In this document: positions 33,208 through 61,418 of the stretch, one piece after another
Layout: every line of letters begins with the position of its first letter
How positions within the stretch are numbered: the stretch's first letter is position 1
Virus record (IMG/VR): IMGVR_UViG_3300027833_003138
Coordinates: 76,315-140,314 of that record
Source: a virus
Strand: one strand, 5' to 3'
DNA: 64,000 bases
Notes under the pieces: generated by a model
What the model was told of the DNA's origin: nothing
Databases searched by the model: none
What the model saw: the letters and a program-made list of their open reading frames with translations, nothing else
Made by a program: the position numbers and the translations under genes

Positions 33208-34000
33208 TTACCTTCATTAATACTCTTGACTCTGTCGGGGGAATATCTGAGTAATCGTTCCAGTCTTTAACTGAATCGTTTTTATATTTTCCGGTCTTCC
33301 ACCAATCTCTAAGTATAACTTTAAACTCTTCAAAACTGGAACAATTCAATTTATCTCCAGCTAGAGACTCTATCATTGATGAAGGAGTAAGTGATCCTCC
33401 AGAGGAATTACTAGATACTGTCTGGCTGGATTTATCTATTTCATCGTCTCCCACGATATGAACATTTAAAAAATTTCTTACGCATCTAACAAAAGCTCTA
33501 TTGCATGCTATAGTCTCTAAAAACTTCGTAGCAAAGCTGCTAGTGTTGTCTAGAGTGGCGTTAGCCATGTCTTGAAAGATTACTGGTTCACCAAAGGTTT
33601 CATAGTTTGGTAAAAATTTCATTCTGCATACCACTGCAACATGGTTGAGTTCACACCTAACCGTTTCATATGCAACATCCGAAAAGCCTCTTAATTTTGC
33701 AAGCTCCTTGATCCCGCTAAGTTTTATTAATAATTGATAATCTTTTAGTCCAATTATAGATCTAGGCAAATCTTTTTTTCTTAAACTAAACCAGGATTTG
33801 TTTGGAAAAAGGTTTTCGTCTTTAATCATGGCTCTCCAATTTACAGAGCCATCCTCTGAAAATTCGTAATCTACGTTATCAAGCAATCCAAATTCATTTC
33901 TTAGAAATTTACCCGGACCGTCTTTGTAGTTTTTAATATAAACTAAATTGCTTTGTTCTTTGTTTTCTGAATTATTTTCTGATGTCTTTGTTTTTACCAT
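33197..34000 (-). CDS. Putative Rad52/Sak-like single-strand annealing protein
   Basis: GIKELA...AVV.C...MANAT..N...FLETIACNRAFVRCVRNFLNV resembles the AETRA.GRALR core. Confidence 0.4.
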   Translation of the reverse strand: MVKTKTSENNSENKEQSNLVYIKNYKDGPGKFLRNEFGLLDNVDYEFSEDGSVNWRAMIKDENLFPNKSWFSLRKKDLPRSIIGLKDYQLLIKLSGIKELAKLRGFSDVAYETVRCELNHVAVVCRMKFLPNYETFGEPVIFQDMANATLDNTSSFATKFLETIACNRAFVRCVRNFLNVHIVGDDEIDKSSQTVSSNSSGGSLTPSSMIESLAGDKLNCSSFEEFKVILRDWWKTGKYKNDSVKDWNDYSDIPPTESRVLMKVINS

Positions 34001-35159
34001 GATTTTTGTCGTTATAAATTTTTAGAGTATCAATTTCTTCCCAAAATTCAGGACAGTCTATAACTTGGTCGTGTTCTCCTTCGAGCTCATTTTTCCAAGC
34101 AGCTTTACTGTTGTATATTTGTCCTCCTGATATGATCTTCATTGAATTTTTATAACGAGTATTATCGCATAGTTTTTCAGAATTGTCAAGGTCTTTTTTA
34201 GTTTTTTCTTTTAACAAGGTAATCGGCCAGTCGAAGAATTTTAATCTTAGTTCATTTATTATACTTTCATCTTTGCATAATAGATTAAATCTAACGCCTC
34301 CTTTTTCTAGAGATTTAAAATAACTTTCTTTACTGTCGTGTGATACGAAATAATTTATTCTGTTTATATTTTTACGTATAACATTTAAGTATCTAATTTT
34401 CATTGGTTTGTCGAGAAATATATTACATTTTCTATCGTATGCCCATTTTGCTATATTTTGCTCGTCAAAACATTCATGACCCCATATGTTGACGGGTTGA
34501 CCCTTTGCAAAGCTTGCGGGCATTATATGGTTGGGAACTACGGAAATAGCTGGGATGTGGTATTGAGGCCCTAAATGTAGAGTTTCTATTTCTGAAATGG
34601 TATTTTTGATTTTTAACAATTTTAAAATAGACGAAGCTATTTCCTCAGGTTTAATTAAATTCACCATCTTCGGCTCTTCACTGTCAGAAAACGACGGCTT
34701 TAGCCCGTTCCTGTGGGACTCGATAAGTATCTGGTTTTCTTTGTCTCCCCAATATGGACCACAACACTCTTTAAATAGTACGCTATATAGGCACACTATT
34801 TTTTTATTAAAGCCAGAGGCTATATGGGTGCTAAATGAATCATTCCCAAAATGCAAAAGCGAATTCTGTATGATATATGCGGATTGTTTTATATTTGTTC
34901 TTCCGTGCAAATGCTCGCAACCCCTGATTGATTTATCTTCTTTTCCGCCTATTTGTATAACCTTAATTCCTTCGCTATTTAAATGAGGCAGAATCATTTC
35001 CATTACGTCATTATAGTAGTCGTAATTCTTTGCTTGCATTCCACTGCTCGCATGAAGGGTTATGTATTTGTTTTCGGCTATGGGGTAAAAGCAAGTCTCT
35101 ATGTGGGGCTTATCTATTTTAACTCCACACGATAAGGCGTATTGTTCGATTAAGTGCAT
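33972..35159 (-). CDS. GT9 (heptosyltransferase-like) C-terminal domain protein
   Basis: YITLHASSG..AKNY, VIQIGG, GRTNIKQSAYII, GNDSFSTHIA. Confidence 0.7.
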   Translation of the reverse strand: MHLIEQYALSCGVKIDKPHIETCFYPIAENKYITLHASSGMQAKNYDYYNDVMEMILPHLNSEGIKVIQIGGKEDKSIRGCEHLHGRTNIKQSAYIIQNSLLHFGNDSFSTHIASGFNKKIVCLYSVLFKECCGPYWGDKENQILIESHRNGLKPSFSDSEEPKMVNLIKPEEIASSILKLLKIKNTISEIETLHLGPQYHIPAISVVPNHIMPASFAKGQPVNIWGHECFDEQNIAKWAYDRKCNIFLDKPMKIRYLNVIRKNINRINYFVSHDSKESYFKSLEKGGVRFNLLCKDESIINELRLKFFDWPITLLKEKTKKDLDNSEKLCDNTRYKNSMKIISGGQIYNSKAAWKNELEGEHDQVIDCPEFWEEIDTLKIYNDKNHGKNKDIRK

Positions 35160-37057
35160 AAATTAAATTGTATTTTATCTTTACCGTTGTGCATGTAATT
35201 CAACATTCTTTGCGTCCCTATAAACGGAAGAAACGCTACTTCAAAAAAACCTTTATGATTTCCTTGCCCCTCCATTGATGGCAAACTGTCCAGTCCCTTG
35301 CTATATGGTATCACTTTATGTATATATGGGTTGCCGTCTAGTATGTCGAAATACTCTGGTTTTGTTGCGAAGTAAATGTTGTAATCAGGGTAAGTTTCTT
35401 TGATGTTTTTTAATAGCGATGTGCATAAGTAGATATCTCCAATGCTTTGGGGCATAGATATCAAGAGCCTGCCTCCTTCGTCGTCTTTATCTAGAAGCTC
35501 TATAAAGTCTATTTTTTGATTTTTTTGATTATCTTGAGTCGCTACCTGTTTGAAGTATTTTAAGACATCCTCTCTTGGCATATTTTCAGATAGTCTTTTC
35601 ATCCAATGCTTGTGTCCGTCGTCTGTGCTGTCTAGATCTATTTTTAGTATATTTTTGTATAAGTCTATAACCCATTCTGAGTTATCTTTAATATTTGGAG
35701 GTGTGTAGTCTGCATTTTTTTCTTCTACTTCAAAATTAAAATCCCAGTCAACCTCGGGCATTTCATCTATGATAGACTCCAGCTTCTTTCCGATGACCTC
35801 TATGCTATAATTATTTATTACAAATTCTCTCGATTTCTTGCCCACTTCTTTCACCTTGCTAGGCTTCATTTTGAGAACCTTCTTGAGTTGATTAGCTATG
35901 CTTTGGGGGTTAGTGCTTGCTTTTATAAATTGAGTGCCAGGCTCTCTGTATTCGGTCCAGCTAAGAGGCAAGCTTCCGCTTTCATCGGTACAACAATCTT
36001 CTCCACAGCTGTAATTCGTAACCAGGGTTATAAGCTCTGCTAGTTTAGCTTCCTGAATAGGTATTTCTTGCCCGCCGCTAGTAAAGGGGTGGCAATAAAC
36101 ATTCATTAAATTATATATCTCGTTTAACTGTTCTTCGGAGACCCCAGCTTTAGTGTTGGTTGTTACTTGAGATTTCTCTGCGCCGCAAAATCTACAATCC
36201 AGATCTTCTTCTTTATAAGCTTTTATTTCGTACTTTTTACAGTTCTTGCAAAAATAAGTCGTAACTACTTTTTCTGGGTCAATGCCTTTTTCTTTAATTA
36301 ATCTAGGAATGTCCCAACCCTCTTTCCAGTGAGTATGTAATAATAGTTTAGTTTTAGATTCTGGGTTCTGATTGCAGAATATTTTAAATCCTTCAATTAA
36401 ATTTGGAACGCTTTTTCTTAATTGGTTTCTAAAAACAAACCCCACTAAGAAGTCATCTTCTTTTATGTTTTGTTCTTTTCTTATTTTTAATCTATCTTCA
36501 TCTTTAAGTTTGAAAAATTTAGATGTATCCAGAGCGCCATGTAAAGTTTTCACATGTTCGTGGCCAAGCCTGTTTAGTTCTTTAGATGCGAATGACGCCC
36601 AGGAGTAATAGTTTTTTATTTTAGGGGCGAGCTTGACAGCTTCCGGTAGAATGGGTAAACTGTCTAGTGTTGTCCATATCATGCAGTTAATTTTGTTCCA
36701 CCACTTCTTTTCTGTATATCCAGAAAAAGCCCAAATATCTTCTATACCTATATATATATCAGGCTTCTCTTCTTCTAGAAATTTATCTATAGTTTGCCCT
36801 CCGTATCCAGCGCTTCTAGCTAAGCCGGGATCTTCATTTAGCTTGCGCAGCAGGGCTGGATTGTTTGGCAGTGAGCCTTGGCATTTCCATGGCAGGGTTG
36901 AAAGTATCGGGTCTCCCCATTTGATTCCGTTTGAGAATTCAACCAGTTCGTACTTTCCTGTTTTCTCTAAGTGGAGAAGTATATTTTTAGTATGCTTTCC
37001 GAAGCCAGTAAAAGCCTTGCAGTGATTGCTGTGTATTAATACCTTTTTCTTCTTCAT
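35150..37057 (-). CDS. GT4-like glycosyltransferase with Zn ribbon and a C-terminal GT9 N-domain
   Basis: TGFG, RNQLRKSVPNLIEGF, CKNC/CRFC, HPFTSGGQEIPIQEA; C-terminal SIGDIYLCTSLLKNIKETYPD...ILDGNPYI. Confidence 0.8.
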   Translation of the reverse strand: MKKKKVLIHSNHCKAFTGFGKHTKNILLHLEKTGKYELVEFSNGIKWGDPILSTLPWKCQGSLPNNPALLRKLNEDPGLARSAGYGGQTIDKFLEEEKPDIYIGIEDIWAFSGYTEKKWWNKINCMIWTTLDSLPILPEAVKLAPKIKNYYSWASFASKELNRLGHEHVKTLHGALDTSKFFKLKDEDRLKIRKEQNIKEDDFLVGFVFRNQLRKSVPNLIEGFKIFCNQNPESKTKLLLHTHWKEGWDIPRLIKEKGIDPEKVVTTYFCKNCKKYEIKAYKEEDLDCRFCGAEKSQVTTNTKAGVSEEQLNEIYNLMNVYCHPFTSGGQEIPIQEAKLAELITLVTNYSCGEDCCTDESGSLPLSWTEYREPGTQFIKASTNPQSIANQLKKVLKMKPSKVKEVGKKSREFVINNYSIEVIGKKLESIIDEMPEVDWDFNFEVEEKNADYTPPNIKDNSEWVIDLYKNILKIDLDSTDDGHKHWMKRLSENMPREDVLKYFKQVATQDNQKNQKIDFIELLDKDDEGGRLLISMPQSIGDIYLCTSLLKNIKETYPDYNIYFATKPEYFDILDGNPYIHKVIPYSKGLDSLPSMEGQGNHKGFFEVAFLPFIGTQRMLNYMHNGKDKIQFNLCT

Positions 37058-37618
37058 TTAAAAAGGAGCTTCGTCATTGCCCGTGGGCTTTTTAGTTTCC
37101 TCTTGTTGGTCTTTTTTATATTTTTGTATGTTTTTGATTTCTTCTCTTCTTCTGTGGGAATACAATTCTTTGAGGTAGAATTTCAAAAACTGATCAAGAT
37201 TTTCCACTTCTCCAGGCTCAATAGGTATTCTGAATGACTGATTTCCGTTTCTTGTGAAAGTTATGCCAAAGGCTGGTAGGGTAATAGAACCGTTCTGCGT
37301 TTTTTGCTGCTTATCCCACGGAACAAACTTGATGGACGTTTTGTTTTCTTCGTAGCTGTGGAACGCTGAATATTCGTAACGCTTGTTTAATGAGCTGATA
37401 ATTCCGCCAATCTCAAATTCACTAAACTTTAGGTTTATGTTTTTGTCTGGATTGTCTTTATTTCCAGAAAAGTTTCCAGATCTTTTCTTGTCGTCCCAGC
37501 TGTATTGTTGTATTGCACTAACATAAACAACAGGTTCTTTGTTTCTGTTGACTCCGATTTTAAAATTAAATGCGCAGCCTGCGTTTTTACTGTTTGGTTT
37601 GTATAGTGATATGCTCAT
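37058..37618 (-). CDS. Whirly-like ssDNA-binding protein (putative)
   Basis: SLYK, YSWD, FSEFEIGGII, AFH and IPIEPGE follow the Whirly motif order; SSB-like acidic tail DEAPF. Confidence 0.45.
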   Translation of the reverse strand: MSISLYKPNSKNAGCAFNFKIGVNRNKEPVVYVSAIQQYSWDDKKRSGNFSGNKDNPDKNINLKFSEFEIGGIISSLNKRYEYSAFHSYEENKTSIKFVPWDKQQKTQNGSITLPAFGITFTRNGNQSFRIPIEPGEVENLDQFLKFYLKELYSHRRREEIKNIQKYKKDQQEETKKPTGNDEAPF

Positions 37619-37666: not shown

Positions 37667-38551
37667 TCAACTATTAATTTTATCTATATGATGGCACCAA
37701 TCTTCTTCTGAGTATAGGTTGCTGTATTTTCTATAACTAGATGTCCATATGTGATTAGGTAAATGTTTTATTCTAATTATGTCAAAATGTTTTTTCATTA
37801 ATTCTGTGCAATTACTCTCTTTAATTTTGTCATACTTTTTATTGATAGGGTCCCAGTAGGTTTCTATTACGGCTTTACATAATAATTGTTCTGGGAATCT
37901 TGAGACATTTTTAAACGAGCATAAGGATACAGCTCTCTCGAAAGCCGAGATCATTCGATCTTTCTGTCCAGCTACAATATGATCTGAAGGGTGGAATTTA
38001 TTTTCCCTAGAGAATCTAAAATAAATGTTAGAGGTTATTATTTTAAACCAATTATAATTTTTTGTTTTTTCGTTTTTATTGTTGTGAGTATTGGATTTTA
38101 ACATATGAACTAGAAGGTCTAGGTTTGGGAAGCTCTCATCTGACCTGACCTTTATACAAAAGAAACCTTTTGCGGCTTTAAGCCCATTTAATGTAGTGAA
38201 GTGCTGGTATATCCATGGGGCTTGTGCGCCCGGTTTTTTTTGAAATTTTGGTAAGTCTGAGTATTTATTAATTACTATTTTTATTTTATCTTTATATTTG
38301 TCTAGTTTATTTACTTCGTCTTTATCCCAGCAGCTAACTATAACCTCTCCGTATTTTAAATAACTATCTATAGTATTGATTGATCTATCGTTTATCGGCC
38401 CTTGTATTATTATTGATACAGAGTTTTCTAACTTTTCGAATCTTTTTAGTATTTTTTTTTGTAGGGATAGCTCAAAATTAGCAAAGCTAGATACGTACTT
38501 TAGCTCTTTCCCTGATTTGTCTTTTAATTGGTGCGGGTTCCAGTGATTCAT
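37667..38551 (-). CDS. WavE-like LPS synthesis protein
   Basis: SIIIQGP, EVIVSCW, TTLNGL, IKVRSDE, FHPSDH, PEQ. Confidence 0.6.
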   Translation of the reverse strand: MNHWNPHQLKDKSGKELKYVSSFANFELSLQKKILKRFEKLENSVSIIIQGPINDRSINTIDSYLKYGEVIVSCWDKDEVNKLDKYKDKIKIVINKYSDLPKFQKKPGAQAPWIYQHFTTLNGLKAAKGFFCIKVRSDESFPNLDLLVHMLKSNTHNNKNEKTKNYNWFKIITSNIYFRFSRENKFHPSDHIVAGQKDRMISAFERAVSLCSFKNVSRFPEQLLCKAVIETYWDPINKKYDKIKESNCTELMKKHFDIIRIKHLPNHIWTSSYRKYSNLYSEEDWCHHIDKINS

Positions 38552-38970
38552 TTTAAATAATCAGAACACAGCCCAAAGCAGGGCGGCCCTCCATAGTTTC
38601 TTGCGTCATCCACAACAAGAACACTTTTATTGCTAACTCTCTTTCCTGGATAAGTCCATACAAAGTTCTTAGAAGTTAATGTGAAATCGTCTGATTCATG
38701 CCAAAAATAATTTAACACCTTAAATTCGCTTAATAAATCCATGGCTTCTAGGTTTTTACAATGAATCCATAAGTGTCTAAAATTCTGAATTAGGAATTTC
38801 ATTGGACACGGATTTTCAGGATTGTCGTGACCAAGCCATAGCTGTTCTTTCGCCCAGACATCGATTTCAACGTCAAACCCCGAGTCTAGAGCTTCTTGTA
38901 TGTAGCTTATTGAGTTTTCTCTTTTCTCGTTCGGACCTTCGGTATTGCCTCTATGGGAGATCAGTATCAT
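38548..38970 (-). CDS. PLC-like / glycerophosphodiester phosphodiesterase-fold protein
   Basis: ISHRGN, ENS, DVEIDVW, LGHD, WIHCKN; ATG 38970 chosen as start. Confidence 0.75.
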   Translation of the reverse strand: MILISHRGNTEGPNEKRENSISYIQEALDSGFDVEIDVWAKEQLWLGHDNPENPCPMKFLIQNFRHLWIHCKNLEAMDLLSEFKVLNYFWHESDDFTLTSKNFVWTYPGKRVSNKSVLVVDDARNYGGPPCFGLCSDYLK

Positions 38971-39328
38971 CCGTGAAATATTTATCCCCAATCACTGAGG
39001 GCGTTTTGATTACGCAGGTTATAGTATTATCTTCAAGCGGCATGAAATCTGTAGCCTCGTTTTTTTCTATTAAAATAATATCGTCTTTTTTGTAAATTTC
39101 TCCGTTCATTCTTGCTGAGCCCTGTATTATTATCGATAGCTCCTCAGCCTCTTTGTGGACATGCCTATCTTGGTACTCTCCTTTTTCGTAACTTTTTACG
39201 GAAACTTCAAACTCTTTGGTTTTAAATATAGTGGGCGCAAAATTTCCCGCAACCCAACCTCCTTTGAAGTTGTTTAGATTATATTTTTTCAAGATTTTTA
39301 TTCGTTCGGGTTTGGAGTGTTTGCCCAT
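38951..39328 (-). CDS. Cupin (RmlC-like) protein
   Basis: GGWVAGNF.P, HVHKEAEE, CVIKTPS; the true start may be TTG 39292. Confidence 0.75.
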   Translation of the reverse strand: MGKHSKPERIKILKKYNLNNFKGGWVAGNFAPTIFKTKEFEVSVKSYEKGEYQDRHVHKEAEELSIIIQGSARMNGEIYKKDDIILIEKNEATDFMPLEDNTITCVIKTPSVIGDKYFTDDTDLP

Positions 39329-40719
39329 AGGTCAGGATCCGAATCTTCTCTCCCTTGGTGTTCTAGAAAATACTTTAGGTCCTCTGGAGTTCCTAGTCCC
39401 CACATTTCCGGAATATCAAAGATTTTTATTTTTTTATTATCATTGATTGCTTCATTGTAGACCGGGCAAACGTAAAATTCATTGTTAACCCTTACGTCAT
39501 TTTTTATCATCCGCTCTGCATATTTTACGTAATCCGAGCCTTTAGTCCAATAATAAATTCCTACCGTGGCTTTATCGCTGATTGGTTTCTTCTCTTGAAC
39601 CTCCGAGACGAAACCGTTTTCATCTAGCTTTGCGTAACTCCATTTTGGGTGAGTTGAATAAAAGGTTAATATGCCCCCGTCAATATTATCCCCCACCATC
39701 GAGTACATGAATTCATTACTATCCCATTCTACAAACTGATCTGAGTTTGCAATCAGCAAAGGCTCGTCGTTATCGATAAGGCTTTTGGCTAGTAGGGTTG
39801 TGCAGGCCGCACCTTCTGTTACTCCGTTAACCGTTACTATCTCACAATCGGGAGAGATCATTTCCAGGGTTTCTTTTAAACTGTATTTGTGATAATGTTC
39901 TTCTTGAACTATAAATATATGTTTTGCCTCTATGTTCAAGTTTTCTGTAATTACTTGAATCATTGGTTTTCCCCTCACTTCAATCAAGGGCTTCGGGAAT
40001 GTGAATCCAGCCTTTTGGAAGCGCGAGCCTGCTCCAGCCATTGGTATTAGTACGTTCATTTTTCCCCCTTGCCATTTTTGGTTAATTTTTGAATTTGCAT
40101 TTGCTTTGTCTATAGTATATTGTATTTTTGATAATTCGAGATCTTTTGCGTTTGTGACTCCGCATAAATGCGCGCCAGATAGCATTGCCGCCTTTCTTCC
40201 TATGTGAGAATCCTCCACGATGACACACTCTTTTGGTGCTAAACCAAGATTGATCATAGCCTTTAAGTACATTTCTGGGTTAGGCTTGGAATTTTTCACA
40301 TCTTCGTTTGTTACATAAAATTCCACATACTCAATCAACCCTTTTCTAAGTAGTATCATTTTGGTTGTCTCTCTGATGGAGTTCGAGCAAACACACATCT
40401 TGAATCCCCTGCTTTTTAGGTTTTTAAATATTTTTATTTGTTCAGGGTCAGGTTTTAATTCTGCGTTTATAAAGTCTATGGTAAATTCTTGCTTCCCTTT
40501 CCATACTTCTTTATGCATATCTTCAGGCAGACCTTTAAGCTCCGATAGCTTGTTTAGTTTTTTGGCGGTAGGCAGGCCGTCGTATGTAGATAAATGCTCC
40601 TCTCTTTTTATGGCGAATTTTGGATCCAAAGAACTTAGGGATTTATTTAGGCAGTGGTAATGCATATCTCTAGAGTCAACTAAAACTCCGTCAAGATCAA
40701 ATAGTATCGCCTTAATCAT
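39298..40719 (-). CDS. HAD phosphatase fused to a sugar-phosphate nucleotidyltransferase
   Basis: FDLDGVLVD, KPNPEMY, VEDS; then LIPMAGAGSRF...PKPLI, NSDQ, EFYVCPVYN, LGTPEDL. Confidence 0.9.
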   Translation of the reverse strand: MIKAILFDLDGVLVDSRDMHYHCLNKSLSSLDPKFAIKREEHLSTYDGLPTAKKLNKLSELKGLPEDMHKEVWKGKQEFTIDFINAELKPDPEQIKIFKNLKSRGFKMCVCSNSIRETTKMILLRKGLIEYVEFYVTNEDVKNSKPNPEMYLKAMINLGLAPKECVIVEDSHIGRKAAMLSGAHLCGVTNAKDLELSKIQYTIDKANANSKINQKWQGGKMNVLIPMAGAGSRFQKAGFTFPKPLIEVRGKPMIQVITENLNIEAKHIFIVQEEHYHKYSLKETLEMISPDCEIVTVNGVTEGAACTTLLAKSLIDNDEPLLIANSDQFVEWDSNEFMYSMVGDNIDGGILTFYSTHPKWSYAKLDENGFVSEVQEKKPISDKATVGIYYWTKGSDYVKYAERMIKNDVRVNNEFYVCPVYNEAINDNKKIKIFDIPEMWGLGTPEDLKYFLEHQGREDSDPDLWANTPNPNE

Positions 40720-53567: not shown

Positions 53568-53576
53568 ATATAAATA

Positions 53577-56162
53577 ATGGCCACAAGGAATTTAGTACCA
53601 AGAAATAGCGGCGAAGGCGGAGTAGGCAGGTTAGATAAGGCCTGGGCAACCGGCGTGTTTGACAATCTATACTTTGGAGGTCTACTAGTATCAATGGACC
53701 AAAACGTAAGAACCTCAGATGATGTAGAATTCAATAGTGGCAATTTTTTAAGCGGTTTAACACTTGATGGGGTTGACGTTTCAAAACTTGGAACCTCACT
53801 ACAGCAGACAATATCGGGGTCGGCAGAATTTCTATTTATTTCGGACGTCTCTGATAACGACGGAGTTACAGATAAAATTTTCTACGAAGGCGTTAACCCA
53901 AATTTACAATTATCAGGAATTACAGTGGCTTCGGCTAAAAATTTAAAAGTAGAATTGAGGTGGGACGGGCCAAACGATGAATACATGGGCGACGCCCATA
54001 TAAACGGTCAGCAAATACCTCTATCCAATATTGAAGAATTAGGAGAGCACACGAGAAGGTTTAAGGGCTACCTAGACAACCTTAATGCAGAAGGTTTGAA
54101 TTTCATAACTGGTGAAGCTAATGACAGGAAAACCCTAATATCATTAAATGAACTAGGTGCAGGGCCAGAGGCAATCAATCTTTCTATCGACTCAATTCAG
54201 AATGCAACCCCCAAAGCGGGAGAACTTCTGGGATCCACGCATTTAAAACAGGGAGACGAAATTAATATTTACGCTGATTTCAACACAAGCGACGTATCTT
54301 CAATAAAAATTTTAAATTCCGGTTTATCTCAAGGCTCTAACTTCTCTAATTACAACCTTGTGAACCACGGCGGCTTCTACAGGGCAACTATACCAACAAT
54401 CGTTTCAAGCAGAGTTGGCGCCCACGGAGTTGCGGTTCAAGCTGTTAATAGCTTTGGATCAACAGGGGACGCGATTAGATCTGATTCTTTTTCTAACAAT
54501 AGCGGAACAAGAGACTTAGATCAGACTTATCCGAATATCTCCTCATCTGACCCAACCTCCTATAATGGAAGATCAGATGGATTAAGAGAGAGCGAAAGCG
54601 TATCATTTTATAATAATATAAGCAACTGGAACAGCTCGATAGATTTTATGGAATACGAAACTCTTTCTAATGATATTTCTATTTCCAACTTAAACACCTT
54701 CGAGCAAAATAAAACAGTCTCCTACTTAAACGGTATATATAATAATTCAGATAATGTAAAAATTTACGCATATAGAACAGGAAACGGCGCAACAGATGAA
54801 GATTTTGTGAAAGTAAAAATTGCCAATGGTCCAGTGATAACCGGCTCAGAACTAAGCGAACAAGCCTCTTCTGCAACCTCCCCAAATCAAATAGGAACGT
54901 CAGAAGTTAAAGCTGGAGACGTAGTTGATTCAAAAATATTTATCGACGGAAACGGGGTTTCAATAAATGATATATCAATATCTGTACTAAGCCAAGGTCT
55001 ATCGAATGGATCTCAAACATCGTACTCATCCTCATACTCAAAAAGTACCCTAGCTGATGGCAGTTTTCAATTTTTAGTGCCAATTGATGTTTATGGGGCG
55101 CTAGGGAATTCATCTAGAGATGGAGAACAATCTGTAACATTTAAGGCCAGGAATAACTTTGGTACAATTAGCGATACAGCAACAACAACGGGTGCTGCCG
55201 AAATTAATAATGGAACGATACCGGTTATATCAATAAACTCTATAACGTATCCAGCCTCACAGCAAGCCATTAAATCAAGTGAGTCTACCTCGATAAGCAA
55301 TAATGTAACAAATTTTGACTCCATAACTTACTCTTCCCCTAATAGCCAATTAAGTATATCAAACACATCCACATACGAACAAAATAAAAATGCGGATTAT
55401 TTAGCTGGGGGTTATAATGTAGAAGGGGACGGCGGAGTTAATAATTTAAAAATCAGCGCAACAAAATCATCCAACGGAGCCACGACAGAATCTTTCAAAA
55501 TAGTAAATATTGCAAATTCACCCCTTACCTTATCTATAAACAATTTAGCAGCATCTTTATCTAGCTCACCTAATGGAGTATCTGACCAGTTTTATATGTC
55601 AAGCTCTCAATTAATGCTATCAAACCCAACATTATCCACGGACCCTAACCAAATAAACCCCTCGAGCCTAAATCAAAATTCATCAGGTACAGGCAAAAAT
55701 AGTAATTCCTATACGATAACAGTATCTGATTTAGATACAAAAGGCACCTTCAATTGGCAAGTTTCTGCAACAAACCTTGCTAATATAACAACAACATCAA
55801 TATCATCAAACCCAACTTATAAATTAGCCGGCTTTTCTTCTAGAACTATCTCCGCTTCGCCAAACAGTCTTGGGGCTGGGCTAGCAGATATAGGAACAAC
55901 AGTCTCAAACCCAAATAACCTTATATTTGAAAATATATCCGAAGGCGGGTCCGCACCAAACGGAGGCACCGCCTATACATACCAGTCCTACTCGGACGGG
56001 GTACAATTAAACAATACCTACGATTTAAATAATAAATTCGCAGTGTGCAATTCAAGCGGGGTAACTGACTCGGACGGAAATTATGTTTTTAATTTGGATA
56101 AATTAAATAGATCCGCTAACACATCCACATTAAATCCCGCTAGTTTCGTAATTTCTGAATAA
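53577..56162 (+). CDS. Ser/Asn-rich putative virion structural protein
   Basis: N-terminal MATRNLVPRNSGEGGVG; internal duplication (..YE.NK.V.YL.G.YN, twice); Ig-like beta composition. Confidence 0.55.
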   Translation: MATRNLVPRNSGEGGVGRLDKAWATGVFDNLYFGGLLVSMDQNVRTSDDVEFNSGNFLSGLTLDGVDVSKLGTSLQQTISGSAEFLFISDVSDNDGVTDKIFYEGVNPNLQLSGITVASAKNLKVELRWDGPNDEYMGDAHINGQQIPLSNIEELGEHTRRFKGYLDNLNAEGLNFITGEANDRKTLISLNELGAGPEAINLSIDSIQNATPKAGELLGSTHLKQGDEINIYADFNTSDVSSIKILNSGLSQGSNFSNYNLVNHGGFYRATIPTIVSSRVGAHGVAVQAVNSFGSTGDAIRSDSFSNNSGTRDLDQTYPNISSSDPTSYNGRSDGLRESESVSFYNNISNWNSSIDFMEYETLSNDISISNLNTFEQNKTVSYLNGIYNNSDNVKIYAYRTGNGATDEDFVKVKIANGPVITGSELSEQASSATSPNQIGTSEVKAGDVVDSKIFIDGNGVSINDISISVLSQGLSNGSQTSYSSSYSKSTLADGSFQFLVPIDVYGALGNSSRDGEQSVTFKARNNFGTISDTATTTGAAEINNGTIPVISINSITYPASQQAIKSSESTSISNNVTNFDSITYSSPNSQLSISNTSTYEQNKNADYLAGGYNVEGDGGVNNLKISATKSSNGATTESFKIVNIANSPLTLSINNLAASLSSSPNGVSDQFYMSSSQLMLSNPTLSTDPNQINPSSLNQNSSGTGKNSNSYTITVSDLDTKGTFNWQVSATNLANITTTSISSNPTYKLAGFSSRTISASPNSLGAGLADIGTTVSNPNNLIFENISEGGSAPNGGTAYTYQSYSDGVQLNNTYDLNNKFAVCNSSGVTDSDGNYVFNLDKLNRSANTSTLNPASFVISE

Positions 56163-56177
56163 ATATTGAAAATTGCT

Positions 56178-56182
56178 GTGTA
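56178..56182 (+). promoter_or_regulatory. GTGTA motif upstream of the second glycosyltransferase cluster
   Basis: TGTGTAATAAAATGCA-ATG (56193). Confidence 0.55.
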
Positions 56183-56192: not shown

Positions 56193-57272
56193 ATGAATAT
56201 ATTGCTTACTGCTAATTATAAAAACGGGTTATTCAGCAACGGACTACAACAAAATATAGTTTTTCTTGCTGAACTATTTAAAGGCATTGGCTTTACTCCA
56301 ATTATTGCCATAAATCACAAAATAGAAGAATGCATTGATCCCCCAGCTGATATATTAATCATAGAAGAAAATGAATTATTAGAAAATTGTGAAGATATAT
56401 CTTTTATATTAAACTCCTCCTGGTTAATAAAGAATGACGCAATAAAATTAATAAAAGAAAAAAATAAAAATTTCAAAAACATACATATTGTTTATGGAAA
56501 TGGTCTTCTGGCAGACATAGAAAGATGCAGCTGGCAAGATCATTTAGCCATAAGTCCAGAAATGGTCGACGAAGTATGGATATCCCCTCATTACAAATTT
56601 TCATATAACTACTACAAAACATATTACAACACAGAAAGAGTATTTGAACTGCCTTATATCTGGAGCTCGAAATACATAGACATGCATGAAAAAATATGGA
56701 ACAAAATAAACAAGACCTGCTACTACCGTCCAGGCGAAGATAAAAATATCGGAATACTCGAGCCTAATTTAAACATAACAAAACACTGCCTACCATCGAT
56801 AATGATAGCTGAGGAATTTTACACAAAGGTCAGCAAGGAAGATTTTAACAAAATAACAGTTTATTGCTCGGCAAAATTTACTGATAAAAAATACTTCAAA
56901 TCCCTAATGTGGAACCTAGATGTAACAAAAGAAAATAAAATAGAATTTAAAGGAAGAATAAAAGTTTCTAAAATACTTACAGATATGTCTAATGTCATAA
57001 TCTCAAATCAACTATTGAACGCCTTAAATTATACTTATTTCGAAGCATTGCATTTTAATTTCCCCCTTGTTCACAACTCTGAGCTGATTAAAGAATCTGG
57101 ATACTACTACCCTAATTACGACACCAAGTTAGGGGCAGAGGCTCTAAACCTAGCCTTAAATTATCACGATCAAAATCTAGATAAATACAAAGAGCAAGCG
57201 CAAAAAACAATTTACAAATACTCACCAAATAATCCAATTGTTATAGAAAAATATAAAAAATTATTATCATGA
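56193..57272 (+). CDS. DUF2827-like (putative GT-B) protein
   Basis: FSNGLQQNIVFL, VWISPH, PYIWS, EPNLNITK, NALNYTYFEAL...PLVHNS, GYYYP. Confidence 0.7.
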   Translation: MNILLTANYKNGLFSNGLQQNIVFLAELFKGIGFTPIIAINHKIEECIDPPADILIIEENELLENCEDISFILNSSWLIKNDAIKLIKEKNKNFKNIHIVYGNGLLADIERCSWQDHLAISPEMVDEVWISPHYKFSYNYYKTYYNTERVFELPYIWSSKYIDMHEKIWNKINKTCYYRPGEDKNIGILEPNLNITKHCLPSIMIAEEFYTKVSKEDFNKITVYCSAKFTDKKYFKSLMWNLDVTKENKIEFKGRIKVSKILTDMSNVIISNQLLNALNYTYFEALHFNFPLVHNSELIKESGYYYPNYDTKLGAEALNLALNYHDQNLDKYKEQAQKTIYKYSPNNPIVIEKYKKLLS

Positions 57273-58054
57273 AAAAAATAGGAATTTGCCAACTATCCGA
57301 TTCAAAATATTATGAAAAACGCAAGAATTGCGTAAATTCAGTTATAGATTATTGCAACAGAAAAGGCTACGACTACCTGGGAAGCGCAGGAACTCTTGAT
57401 AAATCAACCCACCTTTGCTACCAAAAACCGCTAAAATTATTACATCATTTTAATGAATATGAATATTTAGGGTGGCTAGATATGGACACTACAATAGCTA
57501 ATAGAAATTTCGATTTATATAATTATCTAAAAAACTCAGAACAAGATATTTTACATGCAAAAGACTTAGGAGGACAAGCACTAAATAGTGGGGTTTTGTT
57601 TTTTAGAACAAATGATTTTTCACTACAAGTGTTAAATGAGTGGTGGGAATCTCGATACATAGGTGTAGACAAACCCTGGAGGCAAGGAGGTAACAATGAA
57701 GACCAAGGTAGGCTAGTAGATATTCTAAAAAAACATAGCAAACTCAACCCCGTAAACCCACATCACTTTAATATATACCCAACTCTATACAATCGTGGAG
57801 ACTTTTTAATACACTTTATGGGTCACCACCCTTTAGATTATGATCGTTTTGTTAGATTCGCGAATGAAGAAATCTCGTGCGACACAGAACTAGAGTATTA
57901 TTGGCTAGTGTTTTCGTGTCAAGTTTGGGGAGCATATCAAAGAAGCTACGAAGGTTATGACAAAGTAAACCATAGGCCTATTGAAATATATAAACAGGCA
58001 ATATCACTGATCGCAAATAATATAGACTTCTTACCATTGCGAAAACAAAAATAA
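57269..58054 (+). CDS. GT34 (GMA12/MNN10-like) glycosyltransferase
   Basis: YCNRKGY, WLDMDT, LNSGVLF, EDQG, FLIHFMG. Confidence 0.8.
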   Translation: MKKIGICQLSDSKYYEKRKNCVNSVIDYCNRKGYDYLGSAGTLDKSTHLCYQKPLKLLHHFNEYEYLGWLDMDTTIANRNFDLYNYLKNSEQDILHAKDLGGQALNSGVLFFRTNDFSLQVLNEWWESRYIGVDKPWRQGGNNEDQGRLVDILKKHSKLNPVNPHHFNIYPTLYNRGDFLIHFMGHHPLDYDRFVRFANEEISCDTELEYYWLVFSCQVWGAYQRSYEGYDKVNHRPIEIYKQAISLIANNIDFLPLRKQK

Positions 58055-58058
58055 AATT

Positions 58059-59165
58059 ATGAAAATAGGAATAACCCTAGATATGTCCGTTGCTTTTTGG
58101 GCTAACGGAATGCAACAAAACATCGTATTTCTTTATGAAATGATAAATAGATGCGGTCACGAATGCTTTTATATCACCCATAAAAAGCCGACCCACACAC
58201 TAAAGAAGAATCACAAAGGTATGCTTTTAGAAGATTTACTTGCCGACGATAATGAAAATTTAGACCTAATAATAGTCGCCGGATTCGATTTGCTTCCAGA
58301 AATGTACGACAAATTAAAAGCCAGGAACAATAATTTCAAAACGATACTAATACATTTTGGCAATAAATTGATGGATGATATTCACCACTCGCTATCAAAC
58401 AAAAGCACAAAACTGCCACTAGAAAAACCGAAATACCTAGATCAAATCTGGATATCTCCCCAACACGAGTTTTCCAAAAGCTATATAAAAACTTATTATA
58501 ATTTTAAAGATGTTATAGTTATTCCATTCATATGGGACTCTTTTTTTGTAGAAGACAAAATCAAAGAACTTCAAACAAAAGGGTTAGACCCAAGCTTCAA
58601 AAAAGAAAAAATCAACAAAATATGCGTCTTTGAACCAAATATATCTTTTATTAAAAATTGCGTAATACCAATCAATATATCAGAAAATCTTCATAACAAA
58701 GATCGGGAAATATTAAAATCCATAAATATATTCTGCTGCCAAAGAGTCAAGTTTAACCCATTCTTTGAAAAGTTAATGAATAGATTAGAGGTTGTAAAAA
58801 AGAAAGACTTCTGCTACTTCAATAAAAGATGGAGCACACTTGATGCTTTAAGTAAGTTCGGTAGCACTATAGTTAGCCATCAAATTAAAAATGAATTAAA
58901 CTATAGTTATCTTGAGGCTCTGTTCCTAAACCTGCCCTTGATACATAATTCTTCAACTTTAGAAGATGTAGGTTATTATTATCCGGACTGTGATGTGGAC
59001 TTCGGGGCAAACCAATTAAAGAACGCTATACTAAATCACAGTAAAACATTAGATCAAACCAAGGACGATAACAGAAACTTTTTAAAACAGTATAGCCCAT
59101 ACAACCAAGACAACATTAATATATATAATAATATAATAAATGATATTAAAAACAGACAGTCTTAA
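58059..59165 (+). CDS. DUF2827-like (putative GT-B) protein
   Basis: MKIGITL...FWANGMQQNIVFL, IWISPQH, FEPNISFIKN, SHQIKNELNYSYLEAL; paralogue of 56193. Confidence 0.75.
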   Translation: MKIGITLDMSVAFWANGMQQNIVFLYEMINRCGHECFYITHKKPTHTLKKNHKGMLLEDLLADDNENLDLIIVAGFDLLPEMYDKLKARNNNFKTILIHFGNKLMDDIHHSLSNKSTKLPLEKPKYLDQIWISPQHEFSKSYIKTYYNFKDVIVIPFIWDSFFVEDKIKELQTKGLDPSFKKEKINKICVFEPNISFIKNCVIPINISENLHNKDREILKSINIFCCQRVKFNPFFEKLMNRLEVVKKKDFCYFNKRWSTLDALSKFGSTIVSHQIKNELNYSYLEALFLNLPLIHNSSTLEDVGYYYPDCDVDFGANQLKNAILNHSKTLDQTKDDNRNFLKQYSPYNQDNINIYNNIINDIKNRQS

Positions 59166-60645
59166 ATTTTACTACCTCACAAAAACAGAAGATAGTGAAA
59201 ATTGTAAACACATAGAATATATATTAAAAGATTATAAATTTAAAAAAATACTACCTTATGAAATAGGTATATCAAAAGAAAAATCTGGAAGCATAGGGCA
59301 CGCGAGAATGGTTGAGTCCGGCTTAAGAGAGCAAGATAACTCAAGGCCATTTCAGCCATTCGTAATACTAGAGGATGACGTATCTTTTTATCGAGAAATG
59401 CCAAAGGAAATTGATATTCCTAATGATGCAGATTTATTTTATCTAGGCCTATCTCAACTAGCCATGAATGATGGTAAAGCTATTGATAATATTTCCGCCC
59501 AACAAATTGATGAAAACGTATATCAAATTTTCAACATGCTCAGTGGTCACGCAATCATGATTTGCTCTCCGCTTGGCGCTTCAGCCTATCAAAAAGCTAT
59601 GATCGACGGCTTTTATCAAGAAAAGATCTGGGATGTATTTGCCGCTGAAATGCAAGAAAATTATAATGTTTACGCGCTTAAAAAACCTATCTTCTTGCAA
59701 GACTTAAAGCTTGGAGGAAGAGAAGCTGCAACCAATTTTGAACTAGACAATGAAAGATACAGCAAAGAAGTTTTCTCGGACCCTATAAATTTGTCAGATA
59801 AAAAATCCAATTTCTTCAAAAACTCCTCTATCATGAGAATAAGTTCGCAGAAAGCAAACTTAGATGACCTACTCGAACCCTTATCTTCAATACCTAAGAA
59901 AATTCATATCTCATGGAAAGATAAATCTATACTAGAAAGCTCAAACCAATTAGCTGTAAATGGAATACAAAATCTAGCAAAAACAAACCCAGACTGGAAA
60001 CTTGAAATTTCAGATGATAATGAAGTCGAGAGGTATTTAAAACAAAATTTATCAATTATAGATTACGCTTCAATTAAAGACGCGCCAATCGTATCAAAAG
60101 TTGACACTTGGCGCCTGCTGAAGATAGTTAATGAAGGGGGACTATACACAGACATAGACAGACATGCAAATAAAAATTTAAATTCAATTATAGATAAAAA
60201 CTCAAAATGCGTACTTCCCCTCCACTCAAACCACGGGAAGGTTATAGATTTTTCTCAAGACATCATGATTAGCGCTCCAGGCAACCCGCTTCATAAAGCT
60301 GCGCTCGACTTAATGCTAAGAAGGAGAAGGTCGGGGTGGACAGATATACTAACCTTAGCCCCAATCACCTACTTTCACGGCATAACTAAATTAATGTTCG
60401 GCCATTTTTTAGAAAGACGACCAGACAAAGATGTACTGGAAAAAATAATCAACAAAATAAACAATTCAAAATACATTCAAACTTTCATAGAAAAACCCCC
60501 TGAAGAAACTTTTACCTTTCAATACGACAAAGAAAGCTTTAATTTGGGCAACGGACTTGGGAAAGAAGCTATGTACGACGAAAGCAGTGTTGAGCACTGG
60601 GGGGTGAAAAATCCTATAGATAGAAACAAAATTAAATTTAAATGA
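59140..60645 (+). CDS. GT25-like plus GT32-like glycosyltransferase fusion
   Basis: N-half GH...ILEDDV...LFYLG; C-half IPKKIHISW, DTWRL...EGGLYTDID. Confidence 0.75.
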   Translation: MILKTDSLKFYYLTKTEDSENCKHIEYILKDYKFKKILPYEIGISKEKSGSIGHARMVESGLREQDNSRPFQPFVILEDDVSFYREMPKEIDIPNDADLFYLGLSQLAMNDGKAIDNISAQQIDENVYQIFNMLSGHAIMICSPLGASAYQKAMIDGFYQEKIWDVFAAEMQENYNVYALKKPIFLQDLKLGGREAATNFELDNERYSKEVFSDPINLSDKKSNFFKNSSIMRISSQKANLDDLLEPLSSIPKKIHISWKDKSILESSNQLAVNGIQNLAKTNPDWKLEISDDNEVERYLKQNLSIIDYASIKDAPIVSKVDTWRLLKIVNEGGLYTDIDRHANKNLNSIIDKNSKCVLPLHSNHGKVIDFSQDIMISAPGNPLHKAALDLMLRRRRSGWTDILTLAPITYFHGITKLMFGHFLERRPDKDVLEKIINKINNSKYIQTFIEKPPEETFTFQYDKESFNLGNGLGKEAMYDESSVEHWGVKNPIDRNKIKFK

Positions 60646-61418
60646 ATAAAAAACAACAAGAATTCATAGAGCTAAAAAACCAATGGTTAAATTTTTTTGA
60701 TAACGATCGGTTTGGAAAGCATAGAAAGCTTTTTGATTGGGTGAATTACACAAGCTCTCAAATACCTACACCCGAAGCAACCAAAGATACATTCAACTGC
60801 TTTAACCCATTCAAGAAGATTGCAGTAATAAGTTTGTACACAAAAGAAATTTCTGAATTTGCTGTTTTTTCAGAAAAAAGCATTAAAGATTACTGTAAAA
60901 AACAAGGCTATAGTTTTTACGTATACAGAGAAAGTTTAGACAAAAACGGAAGCCCAAACTGGTCAAAATCGCAAGCCTTATTGAACCATATTGACGATCA
61001 CGATTACATAGTTTGGATGGACTCAGATACATTAATCTTTAATCCAGAAAAAAAACTCGAGTCAATTATAGAAAAAGCTCCTAAAAAATTTATACTTGCT
61101 ACAAAAGATATCGGCGATCATTGTATGCTAAATAGCGGAGTTTTATTTTTCAAAAGCCACCAATACACAAAAAATCTAATCAAAAGATGGCGAGACTTTA
61201 ACGGAGATAAATCTTCATTATATGCTAGCGGCGGAGATCAAGAAGTTCTTTGCGAGATTTTGAGAAAATCGGACGAGCTTGGGTTCAATAGAAAGATATT
61301 TGAAATGAACGAATTTAACACAGATCCAAGATTAGTGAACGAAGATACATTTATATTACATTTTATGGCCTACCCACATGAATTAAAAAAAATATTCATG
61401 AGCTATTGGTGTAGCTAA
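60642..61418 (+). CDS. GT34 (GMA12/MNN10-like) glycosyltransferase
   Basis: YCKKQGY, WSK, VWMDSD, LNSGVLF, GDQ, FILHFM. Confidence 0.85.
   Translation: MNKKQQEFIELKNQWLNFFDNDRFGKHRKLFDWVNYTSSQIPTPEATKDTFNCFNPFKKIAVISLYTKEISEFAVFSEKSIKDYCKKQGYSFYVYRESLDKNGSPNWSKSQALLNHIDDHDYIVWMDSDTLIFNPEKKLESIIEKAPKKFILATKDIGDHCMLNSGVLFFKSHQYTKNLIKRWRDFNGDKSSLYASGGDQEVLCEILRKSDELGFNRKIFEMNEFNTDPRLVNEDTFILHFMAYPHELKKIFMSYWCS

What the first reader, a model, noticed from the sequence alone, without database searches (positions are those of the whole stretch)
33972..61418. About 20-gene phage glycosylation system in two differently regulated clusters
Seen: cluster 1 (33972-47014, downstream of a sigma70-type promoter) has GT9-like, GT4-like, GT2-like, GT47, sulfotransferase, methyltransferase, WavE-like and nucleotide-sugar genes. 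A lone GT4 lies at 49315. Cluster 2 (56193-61418, GTGTA motif) sits among virion genes. No flippase, polymerase or exporter gene and no obvious membrane anchors were seen. Established: some mycobacteriophages glycosylate virions with their own GTs, and T-even phages glycosylate DNA. Inference: cytoplasmic assembly of a complex, possibly sulfated and methylated glycan on virion proteins and/or DNA, more elaborate than the phage systems I know.
Basis: partly seen in the sequence, partly recalled or inferred. Interest (0 to 1): 0.8.

Follow-up and report, generated by a model that had tools for sequence, protein, structure and literature searches.

The report
Phage sugar-coating genes beside fibre genes
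An uncultured marine tailed phage carries about 17 recognisable soluble sugar-adding and sugar-modifying enzymes in this stretch, one set built into a late operon of serine/threonine-rich fibre genes, so it most likely sugar-coats its own particle on a scale not reported for phages, though this is unproven.

Summary
Family searches confirm the named enzymes. Of 21 ORFs, 16 have family- or structure-level glycan support and one more has a weak motif. None has a membrane segment.

The two control classes are real and conserved in relatives.
- Cluster 1 follows a leaderless sigma70-type promoter (47355-47327).
- Cluster 2 follows a GTGTA motif 10 nt before its ATG. The same motif precedes the tail and fibre genes.

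Cluster 2 is not among head genes. It lies in one terminator-bounded late unit with four repeat-rich or Ig-like proteins. Its two flanking proteins are the most Ser/Thr-rich large proteins in the record.

The tandem DUF2827 pair recurs with the GTGTA motif in all 11 of 31 marine viral contigs checked, in three structural contexts.

The base-hydroxylation enzymes sought for DNA glycosylation were not found (the dioxygenase search had no positive control). No polytopic membrane protein was found in the 140-kb record, which is 79% complete.

Virion-fibre glycosylation is the best reading for cluster 2. For cluster 1, host-envelope remodelling remains a live rival.

The scan already flagged a 19-kb sulfation island in this same genome. 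I re-checked its content, and the three blocks look like one toolkit.

The parts
47327..47355 (-). Sigma70-type promoter (TTGACG-17-TACTAT with TG) ending 7 nt before the ATG at 47319, which implies a leaderless transcript. It drives cluster 1.
   Evidence: An equivalent promoter is kept in 9 of 10 relatives.
47011..47319 (-). First gene of the leftward operon: a 102-aa winged-helix/DnaD-like small protein, probably a regulator.
   Evidence: Weak PHROG 186/22534 hits. Conserved at 52-98% identity in 11 relatives.
46064..47014 (-). 316-aa protein of unknown family with a GT9-type N-lobe motif (GGLGD) at its start.
   Evidence: Sequence. Weak match to the tail of 35150. No Pfam or PDB hit.
45279..46067 (-). 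262-aa unknown protein, kept in most relatives.
   Evidence: 144 unnamed homologues, several from Tara Oceans samples.
44323..45315 (-). GT-B (GT4-like) glycosyltransferase.
   Evidence: Atlas feature score 0.97-0.98. Structural TM 0.73-0.86 to Glycos_transf_1 clusters.
43628..44323 (-). Glycosyltransferase (PHROG 14945).
   Evidence: E 1.9e-19.
43099..43641 (-). Sulfotransferase (Sulfotransfer_2), a paralogue of six copies in the upstream island.
42225..43115 (-). Exostosin-type GT47 glycosyltransferase.
   Evidence: 41.8 bits against a cut-off of 33.4.
41536..42201 (-). SAM methyltransferase (Methyltransf_24; CmcI/rhamnosyl O-methyltransferase-like).
40720..41532 (-). GT2 glycosyltransferase. 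No counterpart in the 12 related loci compared.
39298..40719 (-). Fusion of a HAD beta-phosphoglucomutase-like domain with a sugar-1-phosphate nucleotidyltransferase. It would supply an NDP-hexose.
38548..39328 (-). Two small unknown ORFs (147 and 125 aa; PHROG 34507 and 24762). The second has a faint cupin hit.
37667..38551 (-). WavE-family (LPS-core type) putative transferase.
37058..37618 (-). 186-aa unknown protein, conserved in relatives, with no glycan assignment.
35150..37057 (-). 635-aa protein: GT4 domain, DUF4214, and a C-terminal segment with a GT9 N-lobe-like motif.
33972..35159 (-). 395-aa protein starting with a GT9 C-lobe. It overlaps the previous gene by 10 nt.
   Evidence: The same two-gene arrangement occurs in relative L009.
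47458..47486 (+). Divergent sigma70-type promoter (TTGACA-17-TATACT with TG), leaderless. It drives dNMP kinase, a sigma-like factor, SSB and the lone GT.
   Evidence: Kept in 10 of 10 relatives.
48340..48942 (+). 200-aa candidate phage sigma/late activator.
   Evidence: PHROG 248/351. Faint Sigma70_r2 hit.
49315..50370 (+). Core GT-B glycosyltransferase, 68-99% identical in every relative whose locus covers this position (11 of 12).
50722..56182 (+). Three GTGTA late motifs (50722, 53563, 56178). Three fibrous genes: 50739-52364 (HRLLSGISG repeats), 52364-53554 (18- and 30-residue repeats), and 53577-56162 (861 aa, a string of Ig-like domains, 23% Ser+Thr).
56193..57272 (+). DUF2827 putative glycosyltransferase, copy a.
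   Evidence: E 1.3e-64.
57269..58054 (+). GT34-type transferase.
58059..59165 (+). DUF2827 putative glycosyltransferase, copy b (31% identical to copy a).
59140..60645 (+). 501-aa protein with a DXD sugar-binding (GT32-like) domain in its C-terminal half.
60642..61418 (+). Second GT34-type/nucleotide-diphospho-sugar transferase.
61501..62397 (+). 298-aa SDVSSL-repeat fibre with 28% Ser+Thr, the highest in the record. Best candidate substrate.
62426..62447 (+). The only strong plus-strand terminator between 50300 and 64000. It closes the late unit.

Best explanation
The window holds two of three blocks of a phage-encoded, fully soluble glycan-building toolkit that most likely decorates the phage's own surface appendages in the host cytoplasm before lysis.

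CLUSTER 2. It is transcribed late, from a GTGTA-type promoter, in one unit with four fibrous or Ig-like Ser/Thr-rich proteins. The tandem DUF2827 enzymes probably attach the first sugars to Ser/Thr of those proteins. The GT34 and DXD enzymes probably extend the chain.

CLUSTER 1. It is transcribed earlier, from a host-sigma70-type leaderless promoter, together with a small regulator. It supplies an activated hexose (HAD-nucleotidyltransferase fusion) and further transfer, sulfation and methylation steps. I infer that these enzymes are made ahead of the late substrates and work on the same glycan.

SHOWN: gene families, solubility, motifs and their conservation, operon layout, recurrence in relatives.
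INFERRED: the acceptor, the order of steps, and the shared target of the two clusters.
For: 1. Every enzyme is soluble. No ORF in the 140-kb record has four or more hydrophobic segments, so no flippase, polymerase, priming transferase or Gtr-type protein is encoded.
2. GTGTA lies 9-12 nt before the starts of 50739, 53577, 56193 and 62468, and 24-28 nt before the tape-measure and J-like tail genes. It is depleted overall, 40 sites against 65 expected. It is kept 9 nt before the 861-aa gene in 11 of 12 relatives.
3. The only strong plus-strand terminator from 50300 to 64000 follows the SDVSSL fibre gene, so fibres and transferases share one unit.
4. The two genes flanking cluster 2 have the highest Ser+Thr content of all sizeable ORFs in the record: 27.9% and 23.2%, against a median of 11.6% over 133 ORFs.
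5. The DUF2827 pair is tandem in 31 viral contigs. A GTGTA motif precedes it in all 11 contigs checked.
6. The pair occurs in three contexts, each next to a large Ser/Thr-rich late protein: after the 861-aa homologue, after a J-type tail fibre plus a 21-23% Ser/Thr protein, and before a 19-21% Ser/Thr protein.
7. A fibre like 61501 directly follows the cassette in 17 of 26 contigs.
8. A more distant relative has a non-homologous glycan cassette at the same position after the 861-aa homologue: two sulfotransferases, a NodZ-like enzyme, an RmlD-like enzyme, a methyltransferase and an NDP-sugar transferase.
9. In bacteria, DUF2827 proteins are cytoplasmic putative transferases found in 2-3 copies next to fibrous trimeric autotransporter adhesins (bioRxiv 10.64898/2026.01.22.700529).
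10. Precedents exist: glycans on mycobacteriophage capsid and tail-tube proteins (as cited in PMC12619734), and giant-virus fibril glycosylation clusters (PMC10117803, PMC9614988).
Against: - No chemistry, proteomics or expression data exist. The phage is uncultured.
- Phage fibre proteins are often Ser/Thr-rich without being glycosylated.
- Ends of late operons near fibre genes are common insertion points for accessory genes, so position may reflect tolerance rather than function.
- Five relatives, one of them 90% complete, keep the 861-aa protein but have no DUF2827 gene. The cassette is therefore dispensable for that protein.
- Cluster 1 belongs to a different temporal class from the proposed substrates. 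It contains LPS-core-type families (GT9, WavE) whose bacterial members are soluble or peripheral and need no phage-encoded exporter.
- The membrane scan was a simple hydropathy scan, and 21% of the genome is missing.
Confidence: 0.5

Rival explanations
1. Host-envelope remodelling. The enzymes, cluster 1 in particular, alter the host's LPS core or capsule during infection, using host MsbA/Lpt or Wzx for export. This would block superinfection or stop progeny from sticking to debris. It is the usual reading of GT clusters in marine cyanophages.
For: - The GT9, WavE and GT2 hits, and the GT25 and Caps_synth families in the upstream island, are typical LPS or capsule families.
- Cluster 1 is under an early-type sigma70 promoter.
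- Cyanophage papers interpret similar clusters this way (PMC12801897).
- LPS-core transferases need no membrane anchor (established knowledge).
- The mosaic content among relatives resembles O-antigen loci.
Against: - Two of the three blocks, cluster 2 and the upstream island, carry the late motif shared with tail genes. That timing leaves little time before lysis to renew the host surface.
- No priming, flipping or polymerising membrane protein was found.
- The GT9 and WavE hits are remote, far below the NCBIfam equivalog cut-offs.
- Many families here (GT47, GT34, Fringe, GT92, Sulfotransfer_2) are better known from protein and proteoglycan glycosylation.
- Cluster 2 shares an operon with fibre genes.
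Confidence: 0.25
2. DNA hypermodification. The transferases glycosylate hydroxylated bases in phage DNA, as in T-even phages and other recently described phages.
For: - The conserved lone GT sits in the same early operon as a T4-type dNMP kinase and SSB.
- Cluster 1 is co-regulated with these replication genes.
- Phages can attach multi-sugar chains to DNA (bioRxiv 10.1101/2023.12.21.572611, title and abstract opening only; PMC13326640, abstract).
Against: - The known routes cited in PMC13326640 and 10.1101/2023.12.21.572611 start from a hydroxylated base. That base is made by a thymidylate-synthase homologue or by a C5 methyltransferase plus a dioxygenase. None was found in the 140-kb record. 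The Tet/JBP search had no positive control.
- The lone GT's best fold matches are a chlorovirus GT4 enzyme and glycogen/trehalose synthases. No T4 alpha- or beta-glucosyltransferase appears among the listed matches.
- About 17 enzymes including sulfation would be far beyond any described DNA glycan.
- Cluster 2 is tied to fibre genes.
Confidence: 0.05
3. Unrelated accessory genes gathered at permissive insertion sites. They would make a free or secreted oligosaccharide, or modify host cytoplasmic proteins, with no link to the neighbouring fibre genes.
For: - Cluster 2 has a lower GC content (32-33%) than its flanks (38-39%).
- It is present in some relatives and absent in others.
- Cluster 1 is a mosaic of modules.
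Against: - The DUF2827 module keeps the late motif in all 11 contigs checked and keeps structural-gene neighbours in three different genome contexts.
- A non-homologous glycan cassette occupies the same position in a distant relative.
Confidence: 0.12

Closest known systems
Mycobacteriophage virion glycosylation (Freeman et al. 2023, Cell Host Microbe; cited in PMC12619734 and PMC12801897)
   Same: Phage-encoded soluble transferases near structural genes. Glycans are attached to virion proteins in the cytoplasm.
   Different: From my own recollection (the paper is not held), those phages use about two transferases on short C-terminal tails of capsid and tail-tube proteins. Here there are about 13 GT-type genes in the window and more in the genome, plus sulfotransferases, methyltransferases and nucleotide-sugar supply. 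The candidate substrates are repeat fibres and an Ig-domain array. The host and phage lineage are unrelated. I did not compare enzyme families.
Giant-virus autonomous glycosylation (Megavirinae fibril clusters, chlorovirus capsid glycans; PMC10117803, PMC9614988)
   Same: Large, clade-specific, variable clusters of soluble transferases, sugar-nucleotide enzymes and methyltransferases that act in the cytoplasm on surface fibrils. The best fold match of the core GT is a chlorovirus NY2A transferase (3oy2).
   Different: This is a tailed bacteriophage of about 140-180 kb, not a nucleocytoplasmic virus. Sulfation is prominent here, whereas the 2022 review of giant-virus glycans does not mention sulfated glycans or sulfotransferases at all. 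No homology of the clusters as a whole was shown.
Cyanomyovirus cell-wall synthesis and modification gene sets (S-SCSM2R, S-SCSM1, P-SSM2; PMC12801897)
   Same: Marine phages with many transferases and sugar-nucleotide enzymes of unknown target.
   Different: Those sets are interpreted as modifying the host surface or DNA. They include an export-type gene (pgaA) and Kdo genes. No link to fibre operons, a late motif, DUF2827 or sulfotransferases is reported in the passages I read.
Bacterial DUF2827 genes next to trimeric autotransporter adhesins (bioRxiv 10.64898/2026.01.22.700529)
   Same: [quoted passage not shown] A role in glycosylating those proteins is proposed.
   Different: The bacterial adhesins are exported by type V secretion, whereas the phage fibres are assembled in the cytoplasm. 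Neither system has biochemical proof. I did not re-check the bacterial neighbourhoods.

Membership tests
Pfam DUF2827 (PF10933) | Full-length match above the curated cut-off of 25 bits. | tested here: met
   218.8 and 240.3 bits, covering profile positions 10-362 and 2-361. Two matches in the genome.
Phage virion-protein glycosylation (mycobacteriophage type) | Phage-encoded soluble transferases linked to structural genes. | tested here: met
   Cluster 2 shares a late, terminator-bounded unit with fibre genes. All enzymes are soluble.
Phage virion-protein glycosylation (mycobacteriophage type) | Glycan demonstrated on virion proteins. | not testable with these tools
   Needs virions or co-expression plus mass spectrometry.
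Giant-virus-type autonomous glycosylation machinery | Virus-encoded nucleotide-sugar synthesis plus multiple soluble transferases in variable, clade-specific clusters. | tested here: met
   HAD-nucleotidyltransferase fusion. About 13 GT-type genes. Mosaic content among relatives.
Wzx/Wzy- or ABC-dependent O-antigen/capsule locus | Priming phosphoglycosyl transferase, flippase or ABC permease, and polymerase (polytopic membrane proteins). | tested here: not met
   No ORF with four or more hydrophobic segments in the 140-kb record. The method was crude and the record is 79% complete.
Seroconverting Gtr (GtrA/B/C) system | Membrane-bound bactoprenol transferase, flippase and serotype-specific transferase. 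| tested here: not met
   No membrane proteins in or near the clusters.
Phage DNA glycosylation pathway | An enzyme making a hydroxylated base: a thymidylate-synthase homologue, or a C5 methyltransferase plus a Tet/JBP dioxygenase. | tested here: not met
   No PF00303, PF12851 or PF00145 match in the record. The PF12851 search had no positive control.
Phage DNA glycosylation pathway | Transferase related to known DNA glucosyltransferases. | tested here: inconclusive
   The listed matches of the core GT model are a chlorovirus GT4-like enzyme and glycogen/trehalose synthases, with no T4 enzyme among them. Model pLDDT is only 68, and I made no direct comparison with the T4 enzymes.
LPS-core heptosyltransferase (GT9: WaaC/F/Q) | Full-length two-lobe GT9 match at equivalog level. 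| tested here: not met
   Only the C-lobe of 33972 matches, at 16-20 bits against cut-offs of 135-569. The N-lobe-like motif lies in the preceding gene.

The most novel reading that the evidence does not exclude
This abundant lineage of marine tailed phages builds a sulfated, methylated, mucin- or proteoglycan-like coat on Ig-like and repeat-fibre appendages of the virion. It does so entirely in the host cytoplasm. Tandem DUF2827 enzymes act as the protein-priming O-glycosyltransferases, and swappable enzyme cassettes diversify the glycan between relatives. This would be the first sulfated glycan made by any virus-encoded pathway, and it would assign a function to DUF2827.
Probability: 0.3. 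Interest if true: 0.85.

Novelty: new variant of a known kind. Interest (0 to 1): 0.7.

Why it matters
Virus-encoded glycosylation of the particle is established for giant viruses and, on a small scale, for mycobacteriophages.

A tailed marine phage that spends roughly a quarter of its known genome on soluble glycan enzymes, including seven sulfotransferases and its own sulfate-donor supply, would extend that idea. It would apply it to ordinary phages, at a much larger scale and with new chemistry.

It would bear on four questions:
- how marine virions interact with particles, mucus, grazers and non-host cells;
- how glycan diversity evolves in phages;
- what phage sulfotransferases do, which one paper explicitly calls unclear (PMC10580990);
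- what the DUF2827 family does, including in bacteria, where it accompanies adhesins.

The fibre-plus-cassette operon is small enough to test by co-expression.

Tried and rejected
- Nucleotide and protein searches of cultured-phage records with cluster 1 and the 541-aa protein found nothing. The closest cultured relatives by the tail protein L are only about 29% identical (Xanthomonas and Stenotrophomonas phages). No host could be named.
- PDB sequence searches gave nothing useful for the 861-aa and 541-aa proteins, DUF2827, 46064, 33972 and 35150.
- PHROGs did not recognise most neighbouring structural genes.
- The PHROG label 'tail sheath' for the C-terminal half of the 861-aa protein was rejected as a function. 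The phage has a lambda-type M/L/J tail tip, and the model is a chain of Ig-like sandwiches.
- The homologue search for 45279 returned only unnamed metagenome proteins.
- A relaxed Pfam scan of the unassigned ORFs gave only faint hits.
- I sent no enzyme-substrate complex prediction, because the tool's own guidance says such pairs rarely give a verdict.
- I could not read Freeman et al. 2023 (not held).

Full report
WHAT THE DNA IS

The window is bases 76315-140314 of a 140,314-bp IMG/VR phage record that CheckV rates 79% complete. The left half encodes a siphovirus-type tail:
- a 2322-aa tape measure;
- lambda-type minor tail proteins M and L;
- a J-like protein;
- fibres with endosialidase-chaperone domains.

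No cultured phage matches at the DNA level. The nearest cultured relatives by protein L are about 29% identical. Homologues of one cluster gene come from ENA, JGI and Logan metagenome assemblies, several of them Tara Oceans samples.

GENE CONTENT

Cluster 1 is a tight minus-strand operon from 47319 down to about 33197. It holds:
- a GT9 C-lobe gene (33972);
- a GT4 plus DUF4214 protein whose tail carries a GT9 N-lobe-like motif (35150);
- WavE (37667);
- a HAD/beta-phosphoglucomutase-like domain fused to a sugar-1-phosphate nucleotidyltransferase (39298);
- GT2 (40720);
- a CmcI-like methyltransferase (41536);
- GT47 (42225);
- a sulfotransferase (43099);
- two further GTs (43628, 44323).

Four or five ORFs remain unassigned: 37058, 38548, 38951, 45279 and 46064.

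Cluster 2 (56193-61418) is five transferase genes in a row: DUF2827, GT34, DUF2827, a DXD/GT32-like protein, and GT34.

The lone gene at 49315 folds as a GT-B enzyme (pLDDT 68). Its best fold matches are a chlorovirus NY2A transferase and glycogen/trehalose synthases.

In total, 16 of 21 ORFs have family- or structure-level support for a glycan role, and 46064 adds a weak motif.

SOLUBILITY AND EXPORT

No enzyme has a hydrophobic 19-residue window typical of a membrane helix. No ORF anywhere in the 140-kb record has four or more such segments. The record therefore encodes no flippase, polymerase, ABC permease, priming transferase or Gtr-type protein. Two caveats apply: the method is crude, and a fifth of the genome is missing.

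REGULATION

Two divergent sigma70-type promoters sit back to back at 47327-47486. Each ends 6-7 nt before an ATG, which implies leaderless transcripts.
- The leftward promoter drives a small winged-helix gene and then cluster 1.
- The rightward promoter drives a dNMP kinase, a sigma-like factor, SSB and the lone GT.

Both promoters are retained, with diverged spacers, in 9-10 of 10 relatives.

A second signal is GTGTA followed by an AT-rich stretch. It lies 9-12 nt before the starts of 50739, 53577, 56193 (cluster 2) and 62468. It lies 24-28 nt before the tape-measure and J-like genes. It also precedes genes of the upstream glycan island.

Four observations suggest the motif is functional:
- It is depleted overall, 40 sites against 65 expected.
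- It is absent from the coding strand of cluster 1.
- It is fixed 9 nt before the 861-aa gene in 11 of 12 relatives.
- It precedes the first DUF2827 gene in all 11 more distant contigs examined.

That GTGTA is a late promoter read by the phage's sigma-like factor is my inference. The two-class pattern itself is an observation.

WHAT SURROUNDS CLUSTER 2

The neighbours are not head genes.
- 50739, 52364 and 61501 are built of short tandem peptide repeats.
- The 861-aa protein models as a chain of six or seven Ig-like sandwiches, with a highly conserved N-terminus (76% of the first 32 residues are invariant in 11 sequences, against about 41% overall). It matches titin-like arrays and viral Ig/FN3 proteins.

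The only strong plus-strand terminator between 50300 and 64000 lies just after 61501. The three upstream fibrous genes, the five transferases and the SDVSSL fibre therefore form one late unit.

The two genes flanking the transferases are the most Ser/Thr-rich sizeable ORFs of the record, at 27.9% and 23.2%, against a median of 11.6%.

COMPARATIVE EVIDENCE

Twelve related contigs share the core from the regulator to the 861-aa gene. The lone GT is present in the 11 whose locus covers that position, at 68-99% identity.

Cluster 1 is a mosaic. Different relatives carry different subsets of its modules.

Cluster 2 is present in the closest relatives and absent from others. Five relatives, one of them 90% complete, have no DUF2827 gene at all. 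One distant relative carries an unrelated glycan cassette in exactly the same place after the 861-aa homologue. That cassette has two sulfotransferases, a NodZ-like enzyme, an RmlD-like enzyme, a methyltransferase and an NDP-sugar transferase.

A search with DUF2827 found 31 viral contigs, all with the two paralogues in tandem. They fall into three genome contexts:
- after the 861-aa homologue;
- after a J-type tail fibre and a 21-23% Ser/Thr protein;
- before a large 19-21% Ser/Thr protein.

A fibre like 61501 directly follows the cassette in 17 of 26 contigs.

A 2026 preprint reports that bacterial DUF2827 proteins are cytoplasmic putative transferases. They are found in two or three copies beside trimeric autotransporter adhesin genes. 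That parallels the phage arrangement.

THE WIDER SYSTEM

An earlier follow-up in this scan described a 19-kb island upstream of the window. I re-checked it.
- The record has seven Sulfotransfer_2 genes, six of them in that island.
- The island's 24 ORFs also include an APS-kinase fusion, Caps_synth/DXD, GT2, Fringe-like, GT25, GT92 and TcdA/B-like transferase domains, a pyruvyl transferase and methyltransferases.
- Three of four related records searched carry one to five sulfotransferases.

The finding is therefore two of three blocks of one toolkit. The cluster 1 sulfotransferase is a paralogue of the island copies.

TARGET

DNA is unlikely. The known routes cited in PMC13326640 and 10.1101/2023.12.21.572611 start from a hydroxylated base, made by a thymidylate-synthase homologue or by a methyltransferase plus a dioxygenase. 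None was found.

Host-envelope remodelling remains possible, mainly for cluster 1. LPS-core transferases are soluble and the host would export their product. Against this rival, two of the three blocks are late, and cluster 2 is wired into a fibre operon.

I put virion-fibre glycosylation at about 0.5 overall, higher for cluster 2 and lower for cluster 1. Host-envelope remodelling is at about 0.25.

NOVELTY

A 2025 paper states that 13 transferases may be the highest number in a marine phage (PMC12801897). Another says the function of phage sulfotransferases is unclear (PMC10580990). The 2022 review of giant-virus glycans never mentions sulfation. If the reading holds, this is a new and much larger variant of virus-encoded particle glycosylation. 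As it stands, it is a well-supported prediction, not a demonstration.

Noticed in passing
window 47319-47495: Back-to-back sigma70-type promoters, each ending 6-7 nt before an ATG, which implies leaderless transcripts. The arrangement is kept in 9-10 of 10 relatives despite diverged spacers.
   Followed up: partly
window, genome-wide (e.g. 8566, 21047, 50722, 53563, 56178, 62454): GTGTA plus an AT-rich stretch, 9-28 nt before the starts of structural genes. It is depleted overall (40 sites against 65 expected). It is probably a late promoter giving very short leaders. The 200-aa protein at 48340-48942 is a weak candidate for the factor that reads it.
   Followed up: partly
window 33972-37057 (-): A GT9-type enzyme appears split. 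An N-lobe-like motif ends the 635-aa GT4 protein, and the C-lobe starts the next gene, with a 10-nt overlap. The same two-gene layout is seen in relative L009, so a sequencing error is unlikely.
   Followed up: partly
window 47378-47680 (-): This 100-aa ORF is probably spurious. It lies antisense to a conserved 98-aa plus-strand gene (47493-47789) that sits directly behind the rightward promoter.
   Followed up: yes
window 53577-56162: PHROG 15433, labelled 'tail sheath', matches the C-terminal half at E 2e-47. However, the phage has a lambda-type non-contractile tail tip and the model is an Ig-domain chain, so the PHROG label looks wrong for this family.
   Followed up: partly
window 61501-62397 and genome 72888-75998 (just upstream of the window): The last 80 residues of the SDVSSL fibre resemble the C-terminus of a 1036-aa protein that is also behind a GTGTA motif. 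This may be a shared anchoring or binding domain.
   Followed up: no
window 56000-60000: Cluster 2 has a GC content of 32-33% against 38-39% in its flanks, which suggests a mobile or recently acquired cassette.
   Followed up: no
L030, L038, L040 (about 8.1-11.8 kb): In other phage lineages the enzymes after the DUF2827 pair are fused into giant multi-domain proteins of 900-1150 aa. Fused forms of 731 and 999 aa occur in L002 and L004.
   Followed up: no
window 37058-37618 (-): A conserved 186-aa protein inside cluster 1 with no glycan-related hit. I did not test this.
   Followed up: no
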